A stretch of 64,000 nt of DNA from Hyphomicrobiaceae bacterium (GTDB lineage: Bacteria > Pseudomonadota > Alphaproteobacteria > Rhizobiales > Hyphomicrobiaceae): positions 31,224 through 95,223 of the forward strand of contig JALHOW010000010.1 in NCBI GenBank assembly GCA_022842785.1. Direction: 5' to 3'. The position numbers were made by a program, and so were the translations under genes. The notes beneath the pieces are model-generated. The model did no database searches and was not told the DNA's origin. It saw nothing but the letters and a program-made list of their open reading frames with translations. This document shows, one piece after another, positions 10,441-33,492 of this stretch; position 1 is the first letter of the stretch, and the number at the start of each line of letters is the position of its first letter.

Positions 10441-10525
<85 letters not shown>

Positions 10526-10553
10526 TCCCTCAAGGCAACTGCGTGATAACCCA

Positions 10554-10566
10554 TAAGCAACTGATT
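10554..10566 (-). promoter_or_regulatory. IHF-like binding site inside left island end
   Basis: Minus strand AATCAGTTGCTTA matches WATCARNNNNTTR. Confidence 0.55.
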
Positions 10567-10591
10567 TGCTGCATGATCTAGCTCGCCCGGC

Positions 10592-10625
10592 TGTTATACA
10601 CGGGTGCTATACATGGGCGTTATCA
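10592..10625 (+). repeat. 13-bp-period imperfect direct repeats TGTTATACA / TGCTATACA / CGTTATCA, probable integrase arm-type sites
   Basis: Same 9-mer TGTTATACA recurs at 19960-19968 near attR. Confidence 0.6.
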
Positions 10626-12376
10626 GGATGGCACGGCCAACCCGCCGAAAAGGGTCGACATACATCCAATTCGACCGCCGGATTCCGAAGGCCGTCCTTG
10701 ATCGGGTGCGCGGCCAGAAGCTGCTCATTCCCGTGGGAACGGAGGTCGTCGAGAAGCGCATCTCGCCCTCCGCCATCCACCTGAAGCTGTCCCTCCGCAC
10801 CGACGACAAGGCCGAAGGGAAGCTGCGGCATGCGCAGATCGATGGATACTTGGAGCGCGTCTATGCGGGGCTGCTCACCGCTGTACCGGTCAAGCTCACT
10901 CACCGCGAATGTGTGGCCATAGCAGGGGTATTCTACCGAGGCTGGGCCAATGAGGCCACTGACCGAGGGACTGCTACCGTCACTGAGCTGGACGAGGACG
11001 GCAACTGGGTGACGACCACGGTCGAAGGCGGGCTGATTGATGCCGGTTATGAGCCGGACGATTTGGCCGCTATCTATGGCACCGTCTCTGGACAGATGTC
11101 GGCCGCAAAAGACCCGATCGATCCCGATGGGAAGGAACTCTCGGCGCTCGTGGCACGATGGCTTCTCGGCATCAGCCTTGTCATCGACGAAGCATCTATG
11201 AAGATCGTTGTTGGTGAGGTCAGGAAGGCGATTGCGGATGCGTTCGCCACCAAGCAGAGGAACGCTCTAGGCGACTATAGTCCCGATCCGAAGGCCGATC
11301 GCTTCCCGCCCATATCCGAGGTTTCTGAGAAGCACTCCCGGAAGCCTGCGACTGTGACACGGGGCAAGTCAGAGCCATTGACGCTCACAGAGCTGTTCAC
11401 GCGATGGAAGGACAGTCCCGATCAGCGCGGAGATGCCAAGAGCCCAGGCATAGCGCAGAGCACTATCGCGAGCTATTCGACTGTCTTCCGTCAGCTCGGC
11501 GAGTTCCTGAAGCATGAAGAGGTGCGGCGGATCACTCGGGACGATATCGAGGGCTTCCTCAAGAAGAGGCGGGAGGACGGGATCGCGCAGAAGACGGTCG
11601 TCGGCGTTGATCGAGCTGCCATCCGTTCCATCTTCAAGTGGGCAGCCGAGAACAGGATCATTCAGGACAACCCGGCGGCGACACTGTGGAAGCCCAAGGC
11701 GCGCAAGAAGGCGAGGACGCGGGGAGATAAGGTCTTCACCGAGGACGAGTGCGTTGCCATCCTCAAACATGCGTCGGGCTATCAGCCTCGGAGCAATCGA
11801 GAGGACAGGAAGCTGATAGCGGCCAAGCGCTGGGTGCCATGGCTGATGGCCTACTCAGGGCTGCGTGTCGGTGAGGTTGCTCAGCTTCGCAAGAAGGACA
11901 TCGAAGAACACCATGGGCATTGGGCTATGGCGATCGACTTCAATGCCGGCACCACCAAGAGCAAAGGGACGTGGCATGTACCTTTGCATTCTCACCTGAT
12001 CGATCTCGGCTTCCTCGATTTCGTGAAGCGTGCCCGCGATGGGTACTTATTCATCGATCCGACACCCGAGCGATACAAGGCGGAGGCTCCGGAAAGCCGA
12101 ACGAAGGATGAGCGCGGGATACTAGGCCCGCTGAAGACGCTTCAGAATGACCTTGCTGAGTTTGCCAGAGAGGTCGTCAAGCGTGAATCCGTGCCCCCCA
12201 ATCATGGCTGGCGCCACACGTTCATCTCCATGTGCCGGACGGTCGGTATAGACCCCGAGACGCAACGCGCCTTCCACGATCACGCGGGCGAGACGGTATC
12301 CGAGTCCGAGTACGGCGTGTTCTATCCTGCGATGATCGAGGTGCTGAAGAAGATACCGAGGTATGAAGTCAAATAG
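10604..12376 (+). CDS. Tyrosine recombinase/integrase with DUF6538-like N-terminus (start may be ATG 10628, MARPTRRKGS)
   Basis: Catalytic set GLRVGE (R), TTKSK (K), HGWRH (HxxR), FHDHA (H), SEYG (Y); adjacent to tRNA att. Confidence 0.92.
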   Translation: MLYMGVIRMARPTRRKGSTYIQFDRRIPKAVLDRVRGQKLLIPVGTEVVEKRISPSAIHLKLSLRTDDKAEGKLRHAQIDGYLERVYAGLLTAVPVKLTHRECVAIAGVFYRGWANEATDRGTATVTELDEDGNWVTTTVEGGLIDAGYEPDDLAAIYGTVSGQMSAAKDPIDPDGKELSALVARWLLGISLVIDEASMKIVVGEVRKAIADAFATKQRNALGDYSPDPKADRFPPISEVSEKHSRKPATVTRGKSEPLTLTELFTRWKDSPDQRGDAKSPGIAQSTIASYSTVFRQLGEFLKHEEVRRITRDDIEGFLKKRREDGIAQKTVVGVDRAAIRSIFKWAAENRIIQDNPAATLWKPKARKKARTRGDKVFTEDECVAILKHASGYQPRSNREDRKLIAAKRWVPWLMAYSGLRVGEVAQLRKKDIEEHHGHWAMAIDFNAGTTKSKGTWHVPLHSHLIDLGFLDFVKRARDGYLFIDPTPERYKAEAPESRTKDERGILGPLKTLQNDLAEFAREVVKRESVPPNHGWRHTFISMCRTVGIDPETQRAFHDHAGETVSESEYGVFYPAMIEVLKKIPRYEVK

Positions 12377-13100
12377 AACCTGTGGTTCCGGGCGCCTCCA
12401 GCGGTTCAGGATTCCCTGTCCTGTACTGGAAGGTCAACATCGGAGCTGATGCCGGCCGATACTGATACCTTCCACCGCCTTCGAACTCGATTGCTTCAGA
12501 CCATCGCTGCATTACGCCGTCGAGGACCCGAATGCGGCTCACGAGATCATCCAAGTCCAGATTGATGTCGCGCGCAGACAGCACGAAGCTCTGCGTAAAG
12601 CACAGCAACTGAGTATCCAGGACGAGCCCTGTTGCGGAGTGGCGCAGTCTTGAACTTGCAGCCATAACTGTCGCGTACCTCAAGGGCGCTTTGTCGCTTG
12701 CCCAGGAGATGGCGCCCCAAAGTGGCGGCTGCGAAGGACTGAGCTTTCCAACTTCTGCGTTGATGTGCTGGATGTAGTGGCGCAGGTCCTCGACGGTCGC
12801 TGTCGCCTTGATGAATGTGACGAAAGCAGGCTCCTGTCGCTTCACTACAGGGAACTGCCTGAGCAACATGCGAATGCGGTGCGCTGCATCGATGATCGAC
12901 CACACGTCGGCAACTACCTCAATAACCTCAGCTTCAGCCGGCCCTACCTCTGGGTGCTCTTCGAACGTCCGCAGCTTCCTGAGCGCCCTCTTATGGCACA
13001 TATCGGCAATCGCGCAGGAGTAGCGTACACCGTCTAGGCTCAGCAGCAGCCGACGCACTCGATCTGCATCGATCCCGATTCGCTGTGGTCTGTCGGTCAT
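12369..13100 (-). CDS. Hypothetical protein, putative HEPN-family nuclease (RHYIQH)
   Basis: Helical region DVWSIIDAAHRIRMLL followed by EDLRHYIQH (RxxxxH); GAGGAT RBS before ATG 13100. Confidence 0.55.
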   Translation of the reverse strand: MTDRPQRIGIDADRVRRLLLSLDGVRYSCAIADMCHKRALRKLRTFEEHPEVGPAEAEVIEVVADVWSIIDAAHRIRMLLRQFPVVKRQEPAFVTFIKATATVEDLRHYIQHINAEVGKLSPSQPPLWGAISWASDKAPLRYATVMAASSRLRHSATGLVLDTQLLCFTQSFVLSARDINLDLDDLVSRIRVLDGVMQRWSEAIEFEGGGRYQYRPASAPMLTFQYRTGNPEPLEAPGTTGSI

Positions 13101-13288
13101 GGCGTTTATCCTCACGGAGCTGTTCGCCACAAGTCGTGCGCCGATTCGATATTCTCCTACAGTTGCTCCGCTGATGGTGTGTCGTTGGATTGACATGTCA
13201 TGTGGGATGCGTGATCCGGAAGAGAGGACGCCTATTGCCTCCAGCCGAATCGAACTACCGTTCAGCGCTTTGGCATTGAGGCAACGTG

Positions 13289-14017
13289 ATGACCGCGAAC
13301 GAGGGGTTTGGGGTCGCCTTCCAATTCGAGGGCTTGCTGGCTGACGTTGCGGGGCTTGATGGTTCCGATCACGAGGCCGCGACTCAAGCGGCGCGGCGTC
13401 TCCTTGCTCTTCACTCTCAAGTGTTTCTCACAGGGAAGGTACCGAGGGCAGCCCTTTCTGAAGGTGATGGGTACCATGTGATCCACGTTGCAAGCCGCCA
13501 AGGCTCTCACGTCGATCTTTGGCAGATTCTCGTTACAAATCCGAACCCCTGGCTGGTCACTGTCGCCGGAGGCCTGGGCTTTTTCCTCTTTGAGGATGAG
13601 ATCAAGCTAGCCGTAAAGAAGGCCAAACGCTTTCTGAGGAACAGCGTGAGGACTACCCTTCGAAGCCGGCCGTATCAGCCGCCAGAGATACCGCTAGCTC
13701 AACCCGTGCTGCAGGCCTTGAGCGGGAACAATGCGCCGATCGTCGATGTGGAGATCGAGGCAGCATACGAACGCGAGCGCCTACGCGATGTCACGGTGCA
13801 TATTCTCTCGGACCTTGCACGCCCCATTGGACGCAGCGCGCACACTCTGACGATCATTGTGGATGGCGAGCGCATCGCCACCATCGATGGAGCACTGAAG
13901 AGCCGACTGGTCAGGGAGCGAGAGGAGGCCTCTGCAAGGCAGCTTCGCCTAGATGAAGAGATCGCTGATGCATTGCGACCGTTGAGGGCGACGCGCGCTA
14001 GTAGAAACGCAGCGTAG
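13289..14017 (+). CDS. Hypothetical mobile-element protein, DUF7946-like
   Basis: F.FEG..AD...LD..D...A.Q...RLL..H...F.TGKV...LARPIGRSA.TLTI recalls DUF7946 from memory; GAGG RBS. Confidence 0.5.
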   Translation: MTANEGFGVAFQFEGLLADVAGLDGSDHEAATQAARRLLALHSQVFLTGKVPRAALSEGDGYHVIHVASRQGSHVDLWQILVTNPNPWLVTVAGGLGFFLFEDEIKLAVKKAKRFLRNSVRTTLRSRPYQPPEIPLAQPVLQALSGNNAPIVDVEIEAAYERERLRDVTVHILSDLARPIGRSAHTLTIIVDGERIATIDGALKSRLVREREEASARQLRLDEEIADALRPLRATRASRNAA

Positions 14018-14052
14018 CTATTGATCTTTTCGATCGGGCTGACGAGAGAATT

Positions 14053-15111
14053 CTAGATCAGCTCCGCACCGCTATCGCGCTTCACTGCAGCACCAGCCTC
14101 ATACCAGGGCTTCGTCGCGTTCACGATCTTCACGACGCTCAGCATCACGGGCACCTCGATGAGGACTCCGACGACCGTGGCCAGCGCGGCGCCGGAGTTG
14201 AGGCCGAACAGTCCGATCGCTGCCGCGACCGCAAGCTCGAAGAAGTTGCTTGCCCCGATCAGGGCAGAGGGGGCCGCCACGCAGTGAGCCTCGCCAGTCC
14301 AGCGATTGAGCACGTAGGCGAGGCCCGCGTTGAAGTAGACCTGAATGAGGATCGGCACGGCGAGGAGCGCGATCACCAGCGGCTGAGCAAGGATCTGTGG
14401 ACCTTGGAATGCGAACAGCAGCACGAGGGTCGCCAGCAATGCCATGAGCGAGAGAGGCTGCACCGCAGTGAGTAGTCTCGCCAGCCCTACTTCCCCTGCT
14501 CGCGACAGCGTCACTCGCCGGATGAGCTGGGCGAGGACGACCGGCACGACGATGTAGAGAACGACCGAGAGAATGAGCGTCTGCCACGGCACCACGATCG
14601 CTGAGAGGCCCAACAGCAGGGCGACGATGGGCGCGAAGGCGAAGATCATGATCACGTCATTGAGCGCAACTTGGCTCAGTGTGAAGTGCGGCTCACCGTC
14701 AGAGAGGTTGCTCCACACGAACACCATGGCGGTGCACGGCGCGGCGGCAAGCAGGATGAGCCCCGCAATGTAGCTGCTGACTTGATCAGGAGGCAGCAGT
14801 GGACGGAAGAGCCATGCAATGAAGATCCACCCTAGCAGGGCCATCGAGAACGGCTTCACAGCCCAGTTGATGAAGAGCGTTACGCCAATGCCGCGCCAGT
14901 GCTCCGTGACGCGCAGCAGCGCCCCGAAGTCGATCTTGACGAGCATTGGGATGATCATCAGCCAAATCAGCAGGGCTACTGGCAGATTGACACTGGCGAT
15001 CTCGGCCGCGGCGATCGCCTGGAAGAGGCCCGGCGCCAGCCATCCGATGGCAATGCCTGCCACGATGCATAGAGCGACCCAGAGGGTCAGATAACGTTCA
15101 AAGGTGGACAT
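14053..15111 (-). CDS. acr3: ACR3 family arsenite efflux transporter
   Basis: MSTFERYLTLWV, LIWLMIIPML, AAPCTAMVFVWS, GASNFFELAVA, GVLIEVPVML. Confidence 0.95.
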   Translation of the reverse strand: MSTFERYLTLWVALCIVAGIAIGWLAPGLFQAIAAAEIASVNLPVALLIWLMIIPMLVKIDFGALLRVTEHWRGIGVTLFINWAVKPFSMALLGWIFIAWLFRPLLPPDQVSSYIAGLILLAAAPCTAMVFVWSNLSDGEPHFTLSQVALNDVIMIFAFAPIVALLLGLSAIVVPWQTLILSVVLYIVVPVVLAQLIRRVTLSRAGEVGLARLLTAVQPLSLMALLATLVLLFAFQGPQILAQPLVIALLAVPILIQVYFNAGLAYVLNRWTGEAHCVAAPSALIGASNFFELAVAAAIGLFGLNSGAALATVVGVLIEVPVMLSVVKIVNATKPWYEAGAAVKRDSGAELI

Positions 15112-15153
15112 GATCGGTCGCCGGTAACTGGGTTGAGTGGTCGGTATTGCTGA

Positions 15154-15681
15154 TCAGCCAGCTTTCCCGCGGGGCACCGTGCTTCCCTCCATGGCCCCGA
15201 TTTCCTTCAGGCGTGTGCCGAGCGCCATACGGTCGATGCTCTGGAGGGGCAGCGCGACGAAGGCGCCGATGCGGTTGCGCAGGAAGCGGAAAGCCTTCTC
15301 GAAGGCCCGCTCCTTCTCGATATCGCTGCCTTCGACGGTCGCGGGGTCCTCAATGCCCCAGTGCGCGGTGATGGGCTGCCCGGGCCAGAGTGGGCAAGCC
15401 TCGCCCGCAGCCTGATCACAGACCGTGAAGACGAAGTCCATCTTGGGTGCACCGGCTTCGGCGAACTCGCTCCAGCTCTTCGAGCGGAGACCGTCGAGCG
15501 GGTACTCGTGGGCAGCCAACGTCTTGATGGCGAAAGGATTGACCTCGCCCTTCGGCATGCTTCCCGCCGAGAACGCTTGGAAGCGCCCCGCGCCTTCTCT
15601 GCGCAGTATCGCCTCGGCAAGGATGGATCTCGCGCTGTTGCCAGTGCAGAGGAACAGCACGTTGTAGGTCGCGGTGCTCAT
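15154..15681 (-). CDS. arsC: Arsenate reductase, LMW-PTP type
   Basis: VLFLCTGNSARSILAE, FTVCD.AAGEACP.WPGQP.TAHWG..DP. Confidence 0.92.
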   Translation of the reverse strand: MSTATYNVLFLCTGNSARSILAEAILRREGAGRFQAFSAGSMPKGEVNPFAIKTLAAHEYPLDGLRSKSWSEFAEAGAPKMDFVFTVCDQAAGEACPLWPGQPITAHWGIEDPATVEGSDIEKERAFEKAFRFLRNRIGAFVALPLQSIDRMALGTRLKEIGAMEGSTVPRGKAG

Positions 15682-15703
15682 TGGCCGACTCGGCTTCGTA
15701 GGG

Positions 15704-15752
15704 GTTGACTCTTATTTCGATACTATTAGAAATACCGTTTCTATCGGTCAAC
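15704..15752. promoter_or_regulatory. Divergent ars promoter/ArsR operator region
   Basis: TTGAC on each strand (15705 +, 15751 -) flanking inverted repeats TATTTCGA-n6-TAGAAATA and TAGAAA-n5-TTTCTA. Confidence 0.65.
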
Positions 15753-15772
15753 AACTTTGATATGACAGTTCC

Positions 15773-16093
15773 ATGAAACTCGATGATGCAGCGGCCCACC
15801 TGGAGGCCCTCGGTAATCCGACGCGGCTCAAGATCTTTCGAGCGCTCGTTCGGGCTGGAGACAACGGGCTGAGCGTCGGCAAGCTACAAACCCGCCTGGA
15901 CATCGCCGCCTCGACCCTCTCGCATCACTTGAAGACGTTGCTTGTGGTCGGCCTCATCACGCAGGAGCGGCAGTCAACAACTCTGATCTGCCGCGCGAGC
16001 TACGACTTGATGCGAGGTCTGGTCGATTTCCTCGTCGATGAGTGCTGTGTCGAGTCCACTGGCACACTGTGTGTCACTAAGTCGGCCTGCTGA
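15773..16093 (+). CDS. arsR: ArsR/SmtB repressor with C-terminal Cys cluster
   Basis: LEALGNPTRLKIFRALVRAG, STLSHHL, FLVDECC...C.....C. Confidence 0.9.
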   Translation: MKLDDAAAHLEALGNPTRLKIFRALVRAGDNGLSVGKLQTRLDIAASTLSHHLKTLLVVGLITQERQSTTLICRASYDLMRGLVDFLVDECCVESTGTLCVTKSAC

Positions 16094-16128
16094 CAGAGAC
16101 GGAAACAGCCATCCGAAGGGAAGCCTCA

Positions 16129-17472
16129 ATGAGCAAGACCGTCGCGATCGTTGGGGCTGGCCCCGTGGGTTTGGCCGCTGCCGCACACGCCCTGGAGCGG
16201 GGCCTGGAGCCGATCGTTCTGGAGGCCGGAGACGCTGCGGGTGATGCCGTGCGCCAGTGGAGCCACGTCCGCATGTTCTCTCCATGGGAGTACAACATCG
16301 ACAAGGCTGCGGCTCGAATGCTGGCCAGAGCCGGCTGGAACACGCCCGATCCGCAAGGCTACCCGACGGGTGGCGAGCTGGTGTCTCGCTACGTCGCCCC
16401 ACTTGCGACTCGAACCGCATTGCGCGGACACATCCGCACGTCAGCACGTGTGACCTCGATCGGCCGTGTGGGCTTCGACAAGGCGAAGTCAAAGGGCCGC
16501 GAGGCGGCGCCGTTCGAGATCCGTTATCGCAACGGCAAGGGACCGGAGCGCCTTATTGCCGACGCCGTGATCGATGCGTCGGGGACGTGGCACTCGCCCA
16601 ATCCGGCGGGTGACAACGGGCTTGCCGCATTCGGCGAACTCGAGTGCGCTGAGCGTCTGGCCTACGGGATGCCGGATGTGTTGGGGCGCCAGCGCGATCG
16701 GTACGCTGGCAAGAGAGTGGCGGTGCTCGGCGCTGGGCATTCGGCCATCGGGACGCTCATCGATCTCGTGAAGCTCAAGGAGGCCGCAGAAGGGACGGAG
16801 GTTCTTTGGCTGATCCGTGGCCCTGATCCTCGTAAATCTTTCGGCGGCGGTGCCAACGACAAGCTCTCGGCGCGAGGCGAACTTGGCACGACATTCGCCC
16901 GGCTCGTCAACGCAGGGACTATCCGCGTCGAGACCGGATTTCACGTAACGCATGTAGGTCTCGCGAACGATCGCCTGCGCATTGGGGCCGGATCTGCTTG
17001 CTGTGGCCGACACGTGATCGCCGATGAGCTGATCGTCTTGACGGGTTTCAGGCCGGACATGTCGTATCTGGCAGAGTTGCGCCTCGGTCTCGACGCGGCA
17101 CTCGACTGCCCCACGGCACTGGCTCCTCTCATCGATCCCAACGAGCATAGCTGCGGCACGGTTCGTCCACATGGGGCTCGCGAACTCGCGCATCCCGAGG
17201 CTGGCTTCTACATCGCTGGCATGAAGTCCTATGGACGTGCGCCGACCTTTCTCATGCTGACCGGGTATGAGCAGGTGCGGTCGATCATTGCAGACATCGC
17301 CGGTGACAAGGAGGCTGCACGGCGCGTCGAGCTGGTCCTGCCCGAAACAGGAGTCTGTTCGCGCGAGCCGCTTTCGGAGGCGTCAGGCTGCTGCGCTACG
17401 CCGACCACGAACGAGACTTCAGCTTGCTGCGCAACCGCGCCAACCAAGAAGTCCGCGACTTGCTGCGGCTGA
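16129..17472 (+). CDS. Flavin-dependent monooxygenase of ars clusters (ArsV-like by inference) with Cys-rich tail
   Basis: GAGPVG (FAD), GAGHSA (NADPH), DASGTW, GMKSYGRAPTFL..TGYEQVRS; tail with three CC pairs. Confidence 0.8.
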   Translation: MSKTVAIVGAGPVGLAAAAHALERGLEPIVLEAGDAAGDAVRQWSHVRMFSPWEYNIDKAAARMLARAGWNTPDPQGYPTGGELVSRYVAPLATRTALRGHIRTSARVTSIGRVGFDKAKSKGREAAPFEIRYRNGKGPERLIADAVIDASGTWHSPNPAGDNGLAAFGELECAERLAYGMPDVLGRQRDRYAGKRVAVLGAGHSAIGTLIDLVKLKEAAEGTEVLWLIRGPDPRKSFGGGANDKLSARGELGTTFARLVNAGTIRVETGFHVTHVGLANDRLRIGAGSACCGRHVIADELIVLTGFRPDMSYLAELRLGLDAALDCPTALAPLIDPNEHSCGTVRPHGARELAHPEAGFYIAGMKSYGRAPTFLMLTGYEQVRSIIADIAGDKEAARRVELVLPETGVCSREPLSEASGCCATPTTNETSACCATAPTKKSATCCG

Positions 17473-17501
17473 TCCTGTCGTAGCGACCATCAGGGGGAAG
17501 C

Positions 17502-18749
17502 ATGGACGGGTCTGGTGAGATCGACCGCACGGCGGCCCGCCGTCTGGTGGCGTTGGTCTGTACCGCGCAAGTGCTTGTGCAGATCGGGGCGTTCTTCTGG
17601 CCCGCTCTGCTGCCTCAGTTGGCCCCGCAGTGGGGCCTCTCGAACAGTGGCGCTGGCTGGATCACAGCGGCCTTCTACGGCGCCTACATGCTGGCGGTGC
17701 CGGTGCTGGTGCCGCTCACCGACCGCTATGACCCCAAGCGCATTTATCTGCTCGGCGTGGGCCTCACGATCGTCGGCCACGCCATGTTCGGGCTCATGGC
17801 GGACGGCTTCTGGTCGGCGCTGCTGTGCCGCGCTCTGACCGGGATTGGATGGGCTGGCACCTACATGACGGGTCTCAAGCTGCTTGCCGATCGCGTCGAT
17901 GCAAAGATGATGTCGCGGGCAACTGCGGGACATGCAGCCAGCATCGGGATCTCCGGTGCGATGTCCTTTGCGACGGCCGAATGGATCACGCATCTCGGTG
18001 GCTGGCAGAGCGCCTTTGTTGCAGCGGCCCTCAGCGCCGTTCTCGCGTGGTTGATCATCGCCACTGTGGTGCCCGCTCAGGTTCGCAAGCCAGCCCGCGC
18101 GGCGGATGGCGGCGGGCTTTACGACTTCCGCCCTGTCCTGAAGAACCGCTCGGCAATGGCCTACGCGCTCGCTTACTGCGTTCATACGCTGGAGATGAGC
18201 GCCCTACGTGGTTGGGGCGTGGCGTTTCTCGCTTATGTCGCCGCCACTACCGGTAGCCAGGGAGCAGCGATCTCACCTGCCGTGCTCGTTACTGGGCTGG
18301 GGCTCATCGGGACCTTCGCGAGCCTCCTCGGAAACGAGGCGGCCATTCGACTGGGGAGACGGCGTCTCGTGCAAACCGCCATGTTCGCCTCCGTTGTGCT
18401 CGGCGGCACGATCGGCTTCCTTGGCACGTACTCGTACACGGTCGCCGCGATCCTCATGCTGGTCTACGGCTTGGTGATCTGGCTCGACTCCTCGTCGCTG
18501 ACGGCCGGTGCCGCCGGTACAGCAGAACCGTCGCGGCGTGGCGCAACCCTCGCGGTGCACTCGTCTCTCGGGTATGCGGGAGGCTTTGTCGGTCCGCTCA
18601 TGATGGGCTGGACGCTCGATCTCAGTGGCGGGATGTCCACCCTGGGTTGGGGCGTTTCTTTCGCCGCGGTCTCGGCGCTGATGCTGCTCGCGTTGATCGC
18701 GTTCTGGTGGATACGACCTAGGGAGCTTGCTGGCGACCGAGGGAGCTGA
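17502..18749 (+). CDS. MFS transporter in arsR operon
   Basis: About 12 hydrophobic segments; loop motif LTDRYDPKRIY; 29-bp gap after the monooxygenase. Confidence 0.88.
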   Translation: MDGSGEIDRTAARRLVALVCTAQVLVQIGAFFWPALLPQLAPQWGLSNSGAGWITAAFYGAYMLAVPVLVPLTDRYDPKRIYLLGVGLTIVGHAMFGLMADGFWSALLCRALTGIGWAGTYMTGLKLLADRVDAKMMSRATAGHAASIGISGAMSFATAEWITHLGGWQSAFVAAALSAVLAWLIIATVVPAQVRKPARAADGGGLYDFRPVLKNRSAMAYALAYCVHTLEMSALRGWGVAFLAYVAATTGSQGAAISPAVLVTGLGLIGTFASLLGNEAAIRLGRRRLVQTAMFASVVLGGTIGFLGTYSYTVAAILMLVYGLVIWLDSSSLTAGAAGTAEPSRRGATLAVHSSLGYAGGFVGPLMMGWTLDLSGGMSTLGWGVSFAAVSALMLLALIAFWWIRPRELAGDRGS

Positions 18750-18837
18750 GCGTGGCGCTTGTTGAGGCGGCGAATTGTCGAAGTTGTTGCGGCCACGAGA
18801 GGCGAGAGAAGCCTCCGGAGCATTCGATCTGCCTCGG

Positions 18838-19731
18838 TCAAGGGCCCGATGGGGTGGCATTGTGGGGTAGCGGCTGGGAAGCATCGTCCTTCCGCGAAAA
18901 CTGATTGACCATGCACTTCAGTTGGCAGTCGTTCCAGTCGAAGGCCTCGCTCCGCTTGGCTGCTTTCGCTCTTTGCGATGAGCAACGGCTTTTGCAGGCA
19001 TCATTGGGGTTCGCAGGTTTGGGTTTCGCAGCCTTTGCGCTCGTTGGCTGGCGCTGCGCCCCTTCAATGGCGGGGCTGCGACTGACGGTCACGCGTTTTT
19101 CGTCCGACGCGATCGGTATTCCGGGGCTGTGCAGGCTATCGACCTTTGGCATCGCGATTGGCTGGATACCCTGCTGCTTGCCTTTGTCTCGAATTGAGCC
19201 CGTGGACTGAGGGGCTGTCACTCGCCAATCTGTTCTCCAGGCTGATGGCGCAGGCGATGGGGAAGGGGGCCGAGGAACAAGTGCGGCGAGGCAGGCGGCC
19301 ACAAAGCCAAGGACAATGAGCGCTGCCCACCCGTTCCCCAAGCTGGCCCTGCGTGCTGGAACCTCTGGCTGTGTCGGCGCTCTCTCGTCTACTGATATTC
19401 TTCGCGTGCCATACTCCGCGAGGGACTGAGCAGCGTCGGCAAATCCTCTTGCTCCGCCAGCTCTTGAGAACATGACAAGCTCATTCAACCCACTGGGGCT
19501 TGTCAGATGCAGCTCTTCATAGCGGCAGATCGGTAGCTGTCTGTTGAATGCAAACCGTCGATCCGGTCCGCCCTTCTTGTTGGGATGTTGCCAAGTGTGG
19601 TCCACTACTTGAGCATCTGTAGGAACGGTGCCACCTTCAATGTACCGAACGCTGCGCGCGTCGAGGTTGATCTGAGAGTATGAGATCGCTCCCGCGCTGT
19701 GTCGGTCCGTGACGAGCAGGAAGTCGGGGAA
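18838..19731 (-). pseudogene. Probably 5'-truncated gene whose N-part resembles the C-terminal region of DUF4236-type proteins, followed by TM and Pro-rich/CxxxC tail
   Basis: Reading upstream of the called GTG (19605) continues in frame: FPDFLLVTD...SVRYIEGGTVPTDAQVVDHTWQHPNKKGGPDRRF; no start codon before the in-frame stop at ~19795. Confidence 0.5.
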
Positions 19732-19959
19732 GCGGGGTCTTCGCAGCTCTGGAGGCCGACGCGCGGGGCCTATTCGAGGTTGGGTCTTCGATACTCAATA
19801 CTGTGCGCCTTTCGACGGGAGGGATCATGCGCGACGGAAACTCATCTCGCCGCCGCAACCCATGGAAATGGCTGCTGATATATCGCGCGTCAAGTGCTCC
19901 GGGGGCCGAGCCGTCGGTATTCACCATGAAAAGGTCGCTTGAGTGGCGATGGGCGGCGG

Positions 19960-19968
19960 TGTTATACA
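19960..19968 (+). repeat. TGTTATACA, probable integrase arm-type site at right end
   Basis: Identical to 10592-10600. Confidence 0.55.
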
Positions 19969-20000
19969 AGCGTCAGGAGGCGACGAAAATTTGCTAGTAA

Positions 20001-20013
20001 TATCAATGTATTC
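20001..20013 (+). promoter_or_regulatory. IHF-like site inside right island end
   Basis: TATCAATGTATTC matches WATCARNNNNTTR except the last base. Confidence 0.45.
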
Positions 20014-20028
20014 TGGATAAGAACTGGC

Positions 20029-20047
20029 AGTCCTATTCTGGGCACCA
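20029..20047 (+). repeat. attR core AGTCCTATTCTGGGCACCA
   Basis: Copy of tRNA-Leu 3' end with one mismatch (C10513 vs A20035). Confidence 0.9.
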
Positions 20048-33042: not shown

Positions 33043-33492
33043 ATGATGCTCGTCGCTACGTCCGTGCGTGCCAGCGCGATCGAAGGCGTTGGCGTATTTG
33101 CAGTGGACTTCATCCCGGCGGGGACGCCGATCTGGGCGCTCGACGAGCGCTTTGACAAGGTCTTCACCGAGGAAGAGGTCGCTAGCTTCCCGCAAAATGT
33201 GCAGGACTACTTCAATCGCTACGGCTATCCGCACATGGAGCGGGACGGCTTTGTCGTGCTCGAACTCGACAATGGCCGGTTCATGAACCACAGCCTGAGC
33301 CCGAATACGGACTTCACACGGCCGGACGTTGGCTACGCCATCGCCGATATCCATCCGGGTCAGGAGCTGATCTGCAACTACTTCGAGTTCGATCGCACGT
33401 TCCAGGGCTTCGATGCCCCGGCGGTCGCTGTCGAGCCAGCGTACGCCGTTCACGCGAATGGCTTGGGCGCTGGCATCAGCGCCAGCATCTGA
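33043..33492 (+). CDS. SET domain-containing protein (putative lysine methyltransferase)
   Basis: S.IEG.GVFA...I..GT.IW, GRFMNHS..PN, AIADI.PGQEL..NY. Confidence 0.9.
   Translation: MMLVATSVRASAIEGVGVFAVDFIPAGTPIWALDERFDKVFTEEEVASFPQNVQDYFNRYGYPHMERDGFVVLELDNGRFMNHSLSPNTDFTRPDVGYAIADIHPGQELICNYFEFDRTFQGFDAPAVAVEPAYAVHANGLGAGISASI

What the first reader, a model, noticed from the sequence alone, without database searches (positions are those of the whole stretch)
15773..18749. arsR-monooxygenase-MFS operon with an MFS unlike ArsK/ArsJ: candidate new organoarsenical/antimony efflux pump
Seen: three co-oriented genes with gaps of about 30-35 bp; the MFS has Cys in predicted TM1 (VCTAQ) and TM7 (AYCVH). 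Established: TM1 and TM7 line the MFS cavity, and an arsR-arsV-arsK operon (flavin monooxygenase plus MFS) detoxifies MAs(III)/Sb(III) in Ensifer. This MFS does not match the ArsK or ArsJ N-termini as I recall them. Inference: a different MFS subfamily recruited as an oxidise-and-export partner; As(III) export is already covered by Acr3, so its substrate may differ.
Basis: partly seen in the sequence, partly recalled or inferred. Interest (0 to 1): 0.7.

Follow-up and report, generated by a model that had tools for sequence, protein, structure and literature searches.

The report
Arsenic operon with an unnamed exporter
A small mobile arsenic-resistance island carries an arsR–arsV(flavin monooxygenase)–transporter operon whose transporter belongs to a conserved but uncharacterised membrane-pump family, unrelated in sequence to the known arsenic pumps ArsK and ArsJ, so it is a good candidate for a new metalloid exporter, though its substrate has not been shown.

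Summary
arsR (15773-16093), a 447-aa flavin monooxygenase (16129-17472) and a 415-aa MFS (17502-18749) are co-oriented, with gaps of 35 and 29 nt. They lie divergent from arsC-acr3, inside a ~9.5-kb tRNA-Leu integrative island.

The monooxygenase is an ArsV-type enzyme, by inference. It is 48% identical to the Ensifer adhaerens protein that sits between arsR and a PGAP-named arsK.

The MFS ("MFS-X") is not ArsK or ArsJ:
- It has no NCBIfam ArsK or ArsJ hit.
- BLASTP against reference ArsK gives E 0.7, and against ArsJ E 1.4.

MFS-X belongs to a separate, highly conserved family found mostly in uncultured Alpha- and Betaproteobacteria.
- In 24 of 80 related genome loci it lies next to arsR-arsV, in several arrangements. 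It often sits beside ArsK-like MFS genes, ArsJ or Acr3.
- A conserved ArsR-type operator (ATTTC-N10-GAAAT) lies upstream of it.

The rest of the family is orphan, sometimes among housekeeping genes. Cys20 (TM1) is invariant. The TM7 Cys is only 77% conserved and does not track ars linkage.

The substrate is unknown. ArsW could not be compared directly; indirect evidence suggests ArsW is a different MFS type.

Verdict: a new variant of a known kind of operon, of moderate interest.

The parts
10441..10525 (+). tRNA-Leu(CAG). Its 3' 19 nt (10507-10525) form the left attachment repeat of the island.
   Evidence: ARAGORN; direct repeat D20
10604..12376 (+). Tyrosine recombinase (island integrase)
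   Evidence: Pfam Phage_int_SAM_1/4 pass their gathering scores; the catalytic-domain model Phage_integrase scores 21.0 bits, below its 27.1 cut-off; directly downstream of the tRNA
14053..15111 (-). acr3 arsenite efflux permease
   Evidence: TIGR00832, 373 bits against a cut-off of 282.8
15154..15681 (-). arsC, LMW-PTP (thioredoxin-type) arsenate reductase
   Evidence: Pfam LMWPc 63 bits; TIGR02691 66.7 bits, below cut-off. CX5R loop plus Cys88 and Cys96 read from the sequence.
15714..15733 (.). Palindromic box ATTTC-N10-GAAAT in the arsC/arsR intergenic region: candidate ArsR operator. It overlaps the -10 hexamer of the leftward promoter-like site (15751-15722).
   Evidence: Single match in 64 kb, expected 0.02. 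Same box upstream of arsR, or between arsR and the MFS, in 15 ars-linked genome loci and in arsR-arsV-arsK plasmid loci. Promoter scan.
15773..16093 (+). arsR, ArsR/SmtB repressor with C-terminal Cys91-Cys92...Cys100 (the ECC..C motif conserved in its orthologues)
   Evidence: NF033788 64.6 bits against a cut-off of 55; C-termini compared
16129..17472 (+). ArsV-type FAD/NAD(P)H monooxygenase with a conserved C-terminal Cys-rich tail (LPETGVC..CC..ACC..CCG, about residues 405-447)
   Evidence: Pfam Pyr_redox_3 and FMO-like. 69% identical to the Nitrobacter hamburgensis protein and 48% to the Ensifer adhaerens protein, both lying between arsR and an ArsK-type MFS. Tail conservation. Not ArsO: 47.6 bits against a cut-off of 425.
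17502..18749 (+). MFS-X: a 12-TM major-facilitator permease of an uncharacterised family. Invariant Cys20, Gln23 and Gln27 (TM1), His144 (TM5), His228 and Glu231 (TM7) and His353 (TM11).
   Evidence: Pfam MFS_1; AF2 model; conservation; no similarity to ArsK or ArsJ
20029..20047 (+). Right attachment repeat: 18 of 19 nt identical to the 3' end of tRNA-Leu. It bounds a ~9.5-kb island.
   Evidence: Direct repeat D20

Best explanation
The window carries a ~9.5-kb integrative arsenic-resistance island inserted at tRNA-Leu. Two divergent transcription units share one ArsR-controlled intergenic region: arsC-acr3 to the left and arsR-arsV-mfsX to the right.

Proposed working, step by step:
1. ArsR is a repressor of the type that senses metalloid through C-terminal cysteines (ECC..C). 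It is proposed to sit on the ATTTC-N10-GAAAT box and to leave it when a trivalent metalloid binds (inferred).
2. ArsV is a flavin monooxygenase with a Cys-rich metalloid-capturing tail. It oxidises MAs(III), aromatic As(III) and Sb(III) to the less toxic pentavalent forms. The family assignment is inferred; the activity comes from the literature on ArsV.
3. MFS-X is a 12-TM MFS from a family distinct from ArsK, ArsJ and the ArsK-like 'K2' type. It is most likely a proton-coupled efflux permease of the same regulon. It would remove a metalloid species that Acr3 does not handle.

My preferred substrate class is trivalent organoarsenicals and/or Sb(III), bound through the invariant TM1 cysteine. 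On this reading MFS-X acts in parallel with ArsV, as ArsK does in arsRVK operons.

What is shown: gene order, family (non-)membership, conserved linkage, the conserved operator, and the conserved residues. What is inferred: regulation, direction of transport and substrate.
For: - Operon anatomy and RBSs.
- ArsV assignment: E. adhaerens E-60 plasmid has arsR, then an FAD oxidoreductase 48% identical to the window's, then a PGAP-named arsK. Sinorhizobium RAC02 has the same order, with an ArsK 46% identical to the A. fabrum C58 protein. Paenibacillus has MarR upstream of a homologue, as bioRxiv 10.1101/2021.08.12.456183 describes for arsV.
- The Cys-rich tail is conserved from Hyphomicrobiales to Streptomyces.
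- MFS-X linkage: 24 of 80 genome loci have arsR (at least 60% identical) and/or arsV within 6 kb, in at least three gene orders and at least four clades of the family tree.
- The operator box lies between the divergent arsR and MFS-X in L011, L017, L019, L027 and L051. In L045 it lies between the arsJ stop and the MFS-X start.
- MFS-X co-occurs in single clusters with Acr3, ArsJ and two ArsK-like MFS types, which argues against redundancy.
- Cys20 is invariant in 81 sequences and in the 38%-identical paralogue X2.
- The fold is a canonical 12-TM MFS.
- Soil metatranscriptome contigs 90-95% identical cover acr3 through arsV and part of MFS-X. This is weak evidence.
Against: - There is no functional data for any member of the family.
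- About two thirds of close homologues (63-76% identical) have no ars neighbour. One sits among oligopeptide-transport, mtgA, prfC and scpAB genes. So the family may have a non-arsenic physiological substrate.
- Cys226 (TM7) is not conserved and does not track ars linkage.
- No motif typical of drug/H+ antiporters was identified. The closest solved structures are Spinster lipid transporters at 18-21% identity, which says nothing about arsenic.
- The exact operator box was not found upstream of orphan copies.
- Co-transcription and induction were not measured.
Confidence: 0.6

Rival explanations
1. Oxidise-and-export. MFS-X expels the pentavalent product of ArsV (methylarsenate, aromatic arsonates or antimonate), like the published ArsV+ArsW pair.
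For: MFS-X directly follows arsV in the window and in L001, L002, L004, L071, L072 and L075. Reviews report that ArsW extrudes methylarsenate made by ArsV. In several loci MFS-X sits beside ArsK-like MFS genes that would already cover trivalent species. The membrane-embedded His144, His228, His353 and Arg110 are invariant and could bind an oxyanion.
Against: An invariant membrane cysteine is more typical of soft trivalent metalloid ligands. In Paracoccus, the genus in which ArsW was described, the MFS next to arsV is the K2 type, which has no similarity to MFS-X. Loci such as L005-L007, L052 and L076 carry both K2 and MFS-X, so MFS-X would be redundant there. Pentavalent products are far less toxic, so selection for a dedicated pump is weaker (established knowledge).
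Confidence: 0.22
2. MFS-X is a housekeeping or otherwise arsenic-unrelated transporter, for example of an organic metabolite. It has merely hitch-hiked into some ars islands.
For: 54 of 80 loci show no ars gene within 6 kb, and no other conserved neighbour. The orphan copy in L090 is in a core-gene neighbourhood. One MAG has both an ars-linked and an orphan copy (L001 and L055). Structural neighbours are lipid or organic-ion transporters.
Against: Linkage to arsR-arsV recurs in several gene orders and clades. It comes with a conserved operator placed directly upstream of MFS-X, even where arsR is not adjacent (L045). The paralogue X2 is also found only beside arsR-arsV in these loci (L001, L002, L023, L043). 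Hitch-hiking would not keep 29-nt operon spacing across 64-98% divergence.
Confidence: 0.15
3. MFS-X is simply a divergent ArsK (or ArsJ) orthologue doing the same job.
For: It occupies the position that ArsK holds in arsR-arsV-arsK operons of Ensifer, Sinorhizobium, Nitrobacter, Bosea, Microvirga, Neotabrizicola and Streptomyces.
Against: No NCBIfam MFS_ArsK hit at E<=0.001, whereas distant ArsK-like MFS proteins score 152-200 bits. BLASTP E values are 0.2-18 against six ArsK-clade proteins and 1.4 against ArsJ. hhalign probability is 2%. MFS-X co-occurs with ArsK-like genes in the same operon.
Confidence: 0.03

Closest known systems
arsR-arsV-arsK operon (Ensifer adhaerens; ArsV flavin monooxygenase plus ArsK MFS)
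   Same: Same first two genes. ArsR is 60-68% identical to the orthologues in the Sinorhizobium RAC02 and Nitrobacter arsR-monooxygenase-MFS loci, and ArsV 48-69% to those of Ensifer, Sinorhizobium and Nitrobacter. Same order, the same ATTTC-N10-GAAAT box upstream, and an MFS as third gene.
   Different: The third gene is from another MFS family with no detectable pairwise similarity to ArsK. In relatives MFS-X is often additional to an ArsK-like gene rather than a substitute.
ArsK (Agrobacterium tumefaciens/fabrum; NCBIfam NF033733)
   Same: A 12-TM MFS of about 415 aa, encoded in ars clusters under ArsR control.
   Different: No model hit, BLASTP E=0.7. Different conserved residues: MFS-X has invariant Cys20, His144, His228, Glu231 and His353.
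ArsV+ArsW (Paracoccus sp. SY; Chen et al. 2021, known here only through reviews)
   Same: The concept of a flavin monooxygenase paired with an adjacent permease.
   Different: In Paracoccus genomes the MFS after arsV is the K2 (ArsK-like) type, unrelated to MFS-X.
ArsJ (organoarsenical MFS working with GAPDH)
   Same: An MFS in ars clusters.
   Different: BLASTP E=1.4, and no GAPDH partner in the window. In L045 a gapdh-arsJ pair and MFS-X coexist.
Spinster-type MFS (SPNS2/SPNS1), the closest solved structures
   Same: Overall fold, TM-score 0.76-0.84; weak sequence similarity, E 1e-9 to 1e-7.
   Different: 18-21% identity. These are eukaryotic lipid transporters and give no functional inference.

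Membership tests
ArsK (MFS) | Scores at or above the curated cut-off (400 bits) of NCBIfam NF033733 MFS_ArsK | tested here: not met
   No hit at E<=0.001. Positive controls: N. hamburgensis MFS 200 bits and Streptomyces FR-008 MFS 152 bits; PGAP-named ArsK in A. fabrum and E. adhaerens.
ArsK (MFS) | Detectable homology to a reference ArsK (A. fabrum C58, WP_010974577) | tested here: not met
   BLASTP E=0.7 over 19 residues; family profile against ArsK hhalign probability 2%
ArsK (MFS) | [quoted passage not shown] | not testable with these tools
   Needs expression in E. coli AW3110 and transport assays
ArsJ (MFS) | Homology to ArsJ and an adjacent ArsJ-associated GAPDH | tested here: not met
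   No NCBIfam ArsJ hit. BLASTP E=1.4 against the PGAP-named ArsJ of Neotabrizicola. No GAPDH gene in the island.
ArsP | ArsP_1 (PF03773) permease domain | tested here: not met
   The only Pfam hit is MFS_1
ArsW | Homology to Paracoccus sp. SY ArsW; methylarsenate efflux | not testable with these tools
   The paper (PMC8865377) and the sequence are not held. Indirect evidence: Paracoccus angustae and P. yibinensis have arsR-arsV followed by a K2-type MFS unrelated to MFS-X.
Major facilitator superfamily | 12 TM helices in two 6-helix bundles; MFS_1 profile; motif A-like loops | tested here: met
   MFS_1 104.5 bits. AF2 model with 12 long helices, pTM 0.86. Foldseek TM 0.83 to SPNS2. TDRxDxKR (TM2-3 loop) and GNExxIRxGRR (TM8-9 loop) conserved.
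ArsV (flavin monooxygenase), for the upstream gene | Two-dinucleotide-binding FMO-like flavoprotein orthologous to the gene between arsR and arsK in Ensifer adhaerens | tested here: met
   Pyr_redox_3 and FMO-like. 48% identity over 94% of the length to the E. adhaerens E-60 protein between arsR and arsK. The reference ST2 ArsV sequence itself was not available, so orthology is inferred from species and synteny.
ArsV (flavin monooxygenase), for the upstream gene | NADPH/FAD-dependent oxidation of MAs(III), Rox(III) and Sb(III) | not testable with these tools
   Needs a biochemical assay
ArsO | NCBIfam NF040505 score of at least 425 bits | tested here: not met
   47.6 bits. The true ArsO of Streptomyces FR-008 is only 26% identical.
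ArsR/SmtB, C-terminal-Cys (AfArsR-like) type | Winged-helix ArsR/SmtB domain plus a vicinal Cys pair and a third Cys near the C-terminus, with no CVC in helix 3 | tested here: met
   NF033788 64.6 bits against a cut-off of 55. Cys91, Cys92 and Cys100; the ECC..C motif is conserved in 25+ orthologues. The comparison with AfArsR Cys95/96/102 is from memory.
Acr3 | TIGR00832 score of at least 282.8 bits | tested here: met
   373.1 bits

The most novel reading that the evidence does not exclude
MFS-X, together with its paralogue X2, founds a previously unnamed family of ArsR-regulated metalloid permeases. Its specificity would be covered by none of Acr3, ArsB, ArsJ, ArsK, ArsP or ArsW: for example, a dedicated antimony exporter (Sb(III) or Sb(V)) or an aromatic-arsenical exporter. 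It would use an invariant TM1 cysteine and a His/Glu cluster in TM5, TM7 and TM11 as the binding site.
Probability: 0.3. Interest if true: 0.65.

Novelty: new variant of a known kind. Interest (0 to 1): 0.45.

Why it matters
Arsenic and antimony resistance is annotated from a short list of named transporters. This family is invisible to the libraries scanned here (NCBIfam and Pfam beyond generic MFS). It also has no close relative (tblastn E<=1e-20) among 72,556 sequenced plasmids, where the best matches are 24-31% identical. Yet it is common in uncultured Hyphomicrobiales and other Proteobacteria from soil, drinking-water biofilters and compost. If it exports an organoarsenical or antimony species, it would add a missing term to gene-based models of As/Sb cycling. 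It would also give a fourth, sequence-independent example of an MFS recruited to ars operons. The conserved ArsR box and the Cys-rich ArsV tail are directly testable handles.

Tried and rejected
- I tried to read the primary papers on ArsK (PMC6275340), ArsV/ArsW (PMC8865377) and ArsZ (PMC9308690). None is held. Text searches for arsRVK and ArsW gave only secondary mentions.
- I looked for source names 'ArsV' or 'ArsW' among homologues of the Sinorhizobium monooxygenase and of the Paracoccaceae K2 MFS. None was found.
- tblastn of MFS-X against 72,556 plasmids gave nothing at 1e-20. Only 24-31% matches to haloarchaeal and Azospirillum MFS genes appeared at 1e-4. This is useful as a negative result.
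- The hypothesis that the TM7 Cys marks ars-linked copies is rejected.
- The hypothesis that the monooxygenase is ArsO is rejected.
- An inverted-repeat scan of the intergenic region with an 8-nt minimum found nothing. The 5+5 palindrome emerged only from the cross-species alignment.
- BsExpA (Brevundimonas) and 'MSF1' were considered as relatives, but no sequences were available.
- The neighbour census by greedy ORF calling was noisy in this GC-rich DNA and was replaced by tblastn with reference proteins.
- The Python machine was lost. Two counts were therefore not completed: loci with at least 3 kb of flank on both sides, and a full Cys226-by-context table. A 50-sequence alignment was read by eye instead.
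Full report
**1. What is in the sequence**

ORF listing and profile scans give this order:
- tRNA-Leu(CAG) 10441-10525
- a tyrosine-recombinase gene 10604-12376
- two ORFs without Pfam hits (12369-13196 on the minus strand, 13286-14017 on the plus strand)
- acr3 14053-15111, minus strand (TIGR00832, 373 bits against a cut-off of 282.8)
- an LMW-PTP arsC 15154-15681, minus strand
- then, divergently, arsR 15773-16093, a 447-aa flavoprotein 16129-17472 and a 415-aa MFS 17502-18749

The gaps between the last three genes are 35 and 29 nt. Purine-rich ribosome-binding sites precede the second and third genes. No convincing terminator lies between them.

The last 19 nt of the tRNA recur at 20029-20047 with 18 of 19 identical (family D20). 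The whole ars cluster therefore lies in a ~9.5-kb integrative island.

**2. The upstream enzyme is an ArsV-type monooxygenase, not ArsO**

The enzyme hits Pyr_redox_3 and FMO-like. It scores only 47.6 bits on the ArsO model, whose cut-off is 425.

tblastn against plasmids finds 156 records. Several carry the same three-gene architecture:
- Nitrobacter hamburgensis plasmid 2: arsR (68% identical), monooxygenase (69%), then an MFS.
- Sinorhizobium sp. RAC02: arsR, monooxygenase (51%), then an ArsK 46% identical to the A. fabrum protein.
- Ensifer adhaerens E-60 plasmid p-3: arsR, an FAD-dependent oxidoreductase (48%), then a gene PGAP names 'arsenite efflux MFS transporter ArsK'.

This is the arsRVK architecture reported for E. 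adhaerens ST2. I know that paper from memory and from secondary citations.

A Paenibacillus plasmid has MarR directly upstream of a 46%-identical homologue. This matches the statement in bioRxiv 10.1101/2021.08.12.456183 that marR precedes arsV in Paenibacillus.

All homologues share a C-terminal tail, LPETGVC...CC(G/A)xP...ACC...(CCG or GCGC). The run of vicinal cysteines is the kind that binds trivalent metalloids; that reading is an inference.

I therefore call the gene arsV-type with about 85% confidence. The reference ST2 sequence itself was not available.

**3. The MFS is not ArsK or ArsJ, nor is it any ArsK-like type that normally follows arsV**

NCBIfam contains an ArsK equivalog (NF033733). 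PGAP also names ArsJ, as seen.
- The window's MFS hits neither model at E<=0.001.
- The MFS genes that follow arsV in Nitrobacter and Streptomyces FR-008 score 200 and 152 bits on the ArsK model.
- BLASTP of the window MFS gives E=0.7 against A. fabrum C58 ArsK and E=1.4 against Neotabrizicola ArsJ.
- It gives E values of 0.2-18 against five ArsK-clade MFS proteins. Those proteins are mutually related at 1e-17 to 1e-109.
- A 35-sequence profile of the family against ArsK gives 2% hhalign probability.
- The only relative among cluster-associated MFS genes is a paralogue, here called X2. It is 38% identical (E 1e-67) and follows MFS-X in L001 and L002.

The closest solved structures, by sequence and by fold, are Spinster-type transporters, followed by generic MFS proteins. 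Sequence E values are 1e-9 to 1e-7 and TM-scores 0.76-0.84, at 18-21% identity.

A phmmer scan of 1.84 billion cluster representatives finds 354 at E<=1e-30 and 3172 at E<=1e-3. The family is compact and well separated.

**4. Where the family occurs and what it sits next to**

Close homologues (63-98% identical) are abundant, with 3914 significant hits in the word-indexed search. They come almost entirely from MAGs and metagenomes of Hyphomicrobiaceae, other Alphaproteobacteria and Betaproteobacteria. No plasmid in PLSDB matches at tblastn E<=1e-20; relaxed to 1e-4, only 24-31%-identical haloarchaeal and Azospirillum MFS genes appear.

In 80 genome loci, tblastn with reference proteins shows arsR (at least 60% identical) and/or arsV within 6 kb in 24 loci, and any ars gene in 26.

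Gene orders differ:
- arsR>arsV>X (window, L001, L002, L004, L071, L072, L075)
- arsR>arsV>K2>X (L005-L007, L052, L076)
- <arsV<arsR >X>K1(>K2) (L011, L015, L019, L027, L041, L051)
- X2 placed before or after X (L001, L002, L023, L043)
- in L045, arsV>acr3>arsR/arsC>gapdh>arsJ>X

K1 and K2 are two ArsK-related types, 35% and 30% identical to ArsK. The ars-linked copies fall in at least four clades of a neighbour-joining tree, interleaved with unlinked clades.

The remaining loci share no conserved neighbour. One orphan copy, 76% identical, lies between an oligopeptide ABC operon and mtgA-prfC-scpAB.

**5. A conserved operator ties MFS-X to the ArsR regulon**

Aligning the arsC/arsR intergenic regions of the window, L001, L002, L072 and Nitrobacter exposed an invariant palindrome, ATTTC-N10-GAAAT.
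- It occurs once in the 64-kb window, at 15714-15733, where 0.02 matches are expected.
- It overlaps the -10 hexamer of the leftward promoter-like site.
- Across the 90 loci fetched by then it matches in 23. It lies just upstream of arsR in co-directional clusters, including the Ensifer, Sinorhizobium, Bosea and Neotabrizicola plasmids.
- It lies in the shared arsR/MFS-X intergenic region in the divergent clusters L011, L017, L019, L027 and L051.
- In L045 it lies between the arsJ stop (5911) and the MFS-X start (5980).
- The exact box was not seen upstream of orphan copies.

This is the strongest evidence that the ars-linked MFS-X genes are metalloid-regulated. ArsR binding to the box is inferred, not shown.

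**6. Residues**

In 81 sequences, 160 of 415 positions are at least 97% conserved.
- Cys20 is invariant, and is also kept in X2.
- The AlphaFold2 model (pLDDT 84.9) places Cys20 in TM1 with Gln23 and Gln27.
- Cys226, His228 and Glu231 fall in TM7, His144 in TM5 and His353 in TM11.
- Cys226 is only 77% conserved. It is Ala in ars-linked L005 and Ser in L041, but Cys in many orphans.
- X2 instead has Cys one turn later (HCFE).

**7. ArsW**

Reviews state that ArsV oxidises MAs(III) and ArsW extrudes methylarsenate in Paracoccus sp. SY. The oxidise-and-export concept is therefore already published. I could not get the sequence.

Paracoccus angustae and P. yibinensis carry arsR-arsV followed by a K2-type MFS, next to arsJ-gapdh. 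I infer that ArsW is probably the K2 type, to which MFS-X shows no similarity. This remains the main uncertainty for novelty.

**8. Expression**

No run holds the exact sequence as RNA. Four soil metatranscriptomes contain contigs 90-95% identical that cover acr3, arsC, arsR, arsV and parts of MFS-X. This is weak evidence that close homologues are transcribed, and DNA carry-over is not excluded.

**9. Verdict**

The operon is a real arsR-arsV-MFS unit on a small mobile ars island. Its MFS belongs to an unnamed family distinct from ArsK and ArsJ, and probably from ArsW. The family is recurrently embedded in ArsR/ArsV clusters beside the known pumps, which points to a non-redundant metalloid substrate.

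Function, direction of transport and substrate are inferred. A large orphan fraction of the family keeps a non-arsenic role possible. I rate this a new variant of a known kind, with interest 0.45.

Noticed in passing
window 10441-20047: The whole ars cluster is a ~9.5-kb integrative island. It runs from tRNA-Leu(CAG) and an adjacent tyrosine recombinase on the left to an 18/19-nt repeat of the tRNA 3' end at 20029-20047. GC content in 12-14 kb is slightly lower (0.58) than in the surroundings.
   Followed up: partly
window 15714-15733; also L001, L002, L011, L017, L019, L027, L045, L051, L067, L071, L072, L075, L076, L081, L083, L085-L088: A conserved palindrome ATTTC-N10-GAAAT accompanies arsR-arsV clusters from Hyphomicrobiales MAGs to Ensifer, Bosea and Neotabrizicola plasmids. 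It is a candidate operator of this ArsR subfamily. Ensifer and Sinorhizobium have a second copy between arsR and arsV.
   Followed up: partly
window 17340-17472 (ArsV residues ~405-447): The Cys-rich C-terminal tail of the monooxygenase (GVC..CC..ACC..CCG) is conserved as a motif in homologues from Alphaproteobacteria to Streptomyces. It looks like a metalloid-capturing arm.
   Followed up: partly
window 18750-19605 compared with L001 6863-8001 and L002 7246-8384: The near-identical loci L001 and L002 carry a second MFS paralogue (X2, 38% identical to MFS-X) directly after MFS-X. In the window, homology stops about 13 nt after the MFS-X stop codon. An unrelated 255-aa ORF on the minus strand (18838-19605, no Pfam hit) follows instead.
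   Followed up: partly
L005-L007, L011, L019, L041, L051, L052, L076: Some arsR-arsV clusters carry two or three different MFS genes in a row (MFS-X, K1, K2). This is an unusual concentration of MFS permeases around one monooxygenase.
   Followed up: partly
window 33154-33209 compared with 11726-11781: A 56-nt stretch 71% identical to part of the island integrase gene occurs near 33.2 kb. It may mark a second related recombinase gene or island.
   Followed up: no
L092 3606-4971 and L093 1292-2660 (Paracoccus yibinensis and a Logan contig): The arsV homologue is called as two ORFs (286/287 aa plus 180/167 aa). This suggests a frameshifted or split arsV in these Paracoccus loci.
   Followed up: no
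L082 (Streptomyces sp. FR-008 plasmid pSSFR1) 1-7564: The plasmid carries an ArsO-family monooxygenase in an ars cluster (PGAP name). A separate ArsV-type monooxygenase plus an ArsK-like MFS lie 1.7 kb further on. ArsO and ArsV-type enzymes thus coexist in one cluster.
   Followed up: no
window 12369-14017: Two island ORFs (275 aa on the minus strand, 243 aa on the plus strand) lie between the integrase and acr3 and have no Pfam hit. A 50%-identical relative of the 243-aa ORF lies downstream of the cluster in L002 (9832-10512).
   Followed up: no
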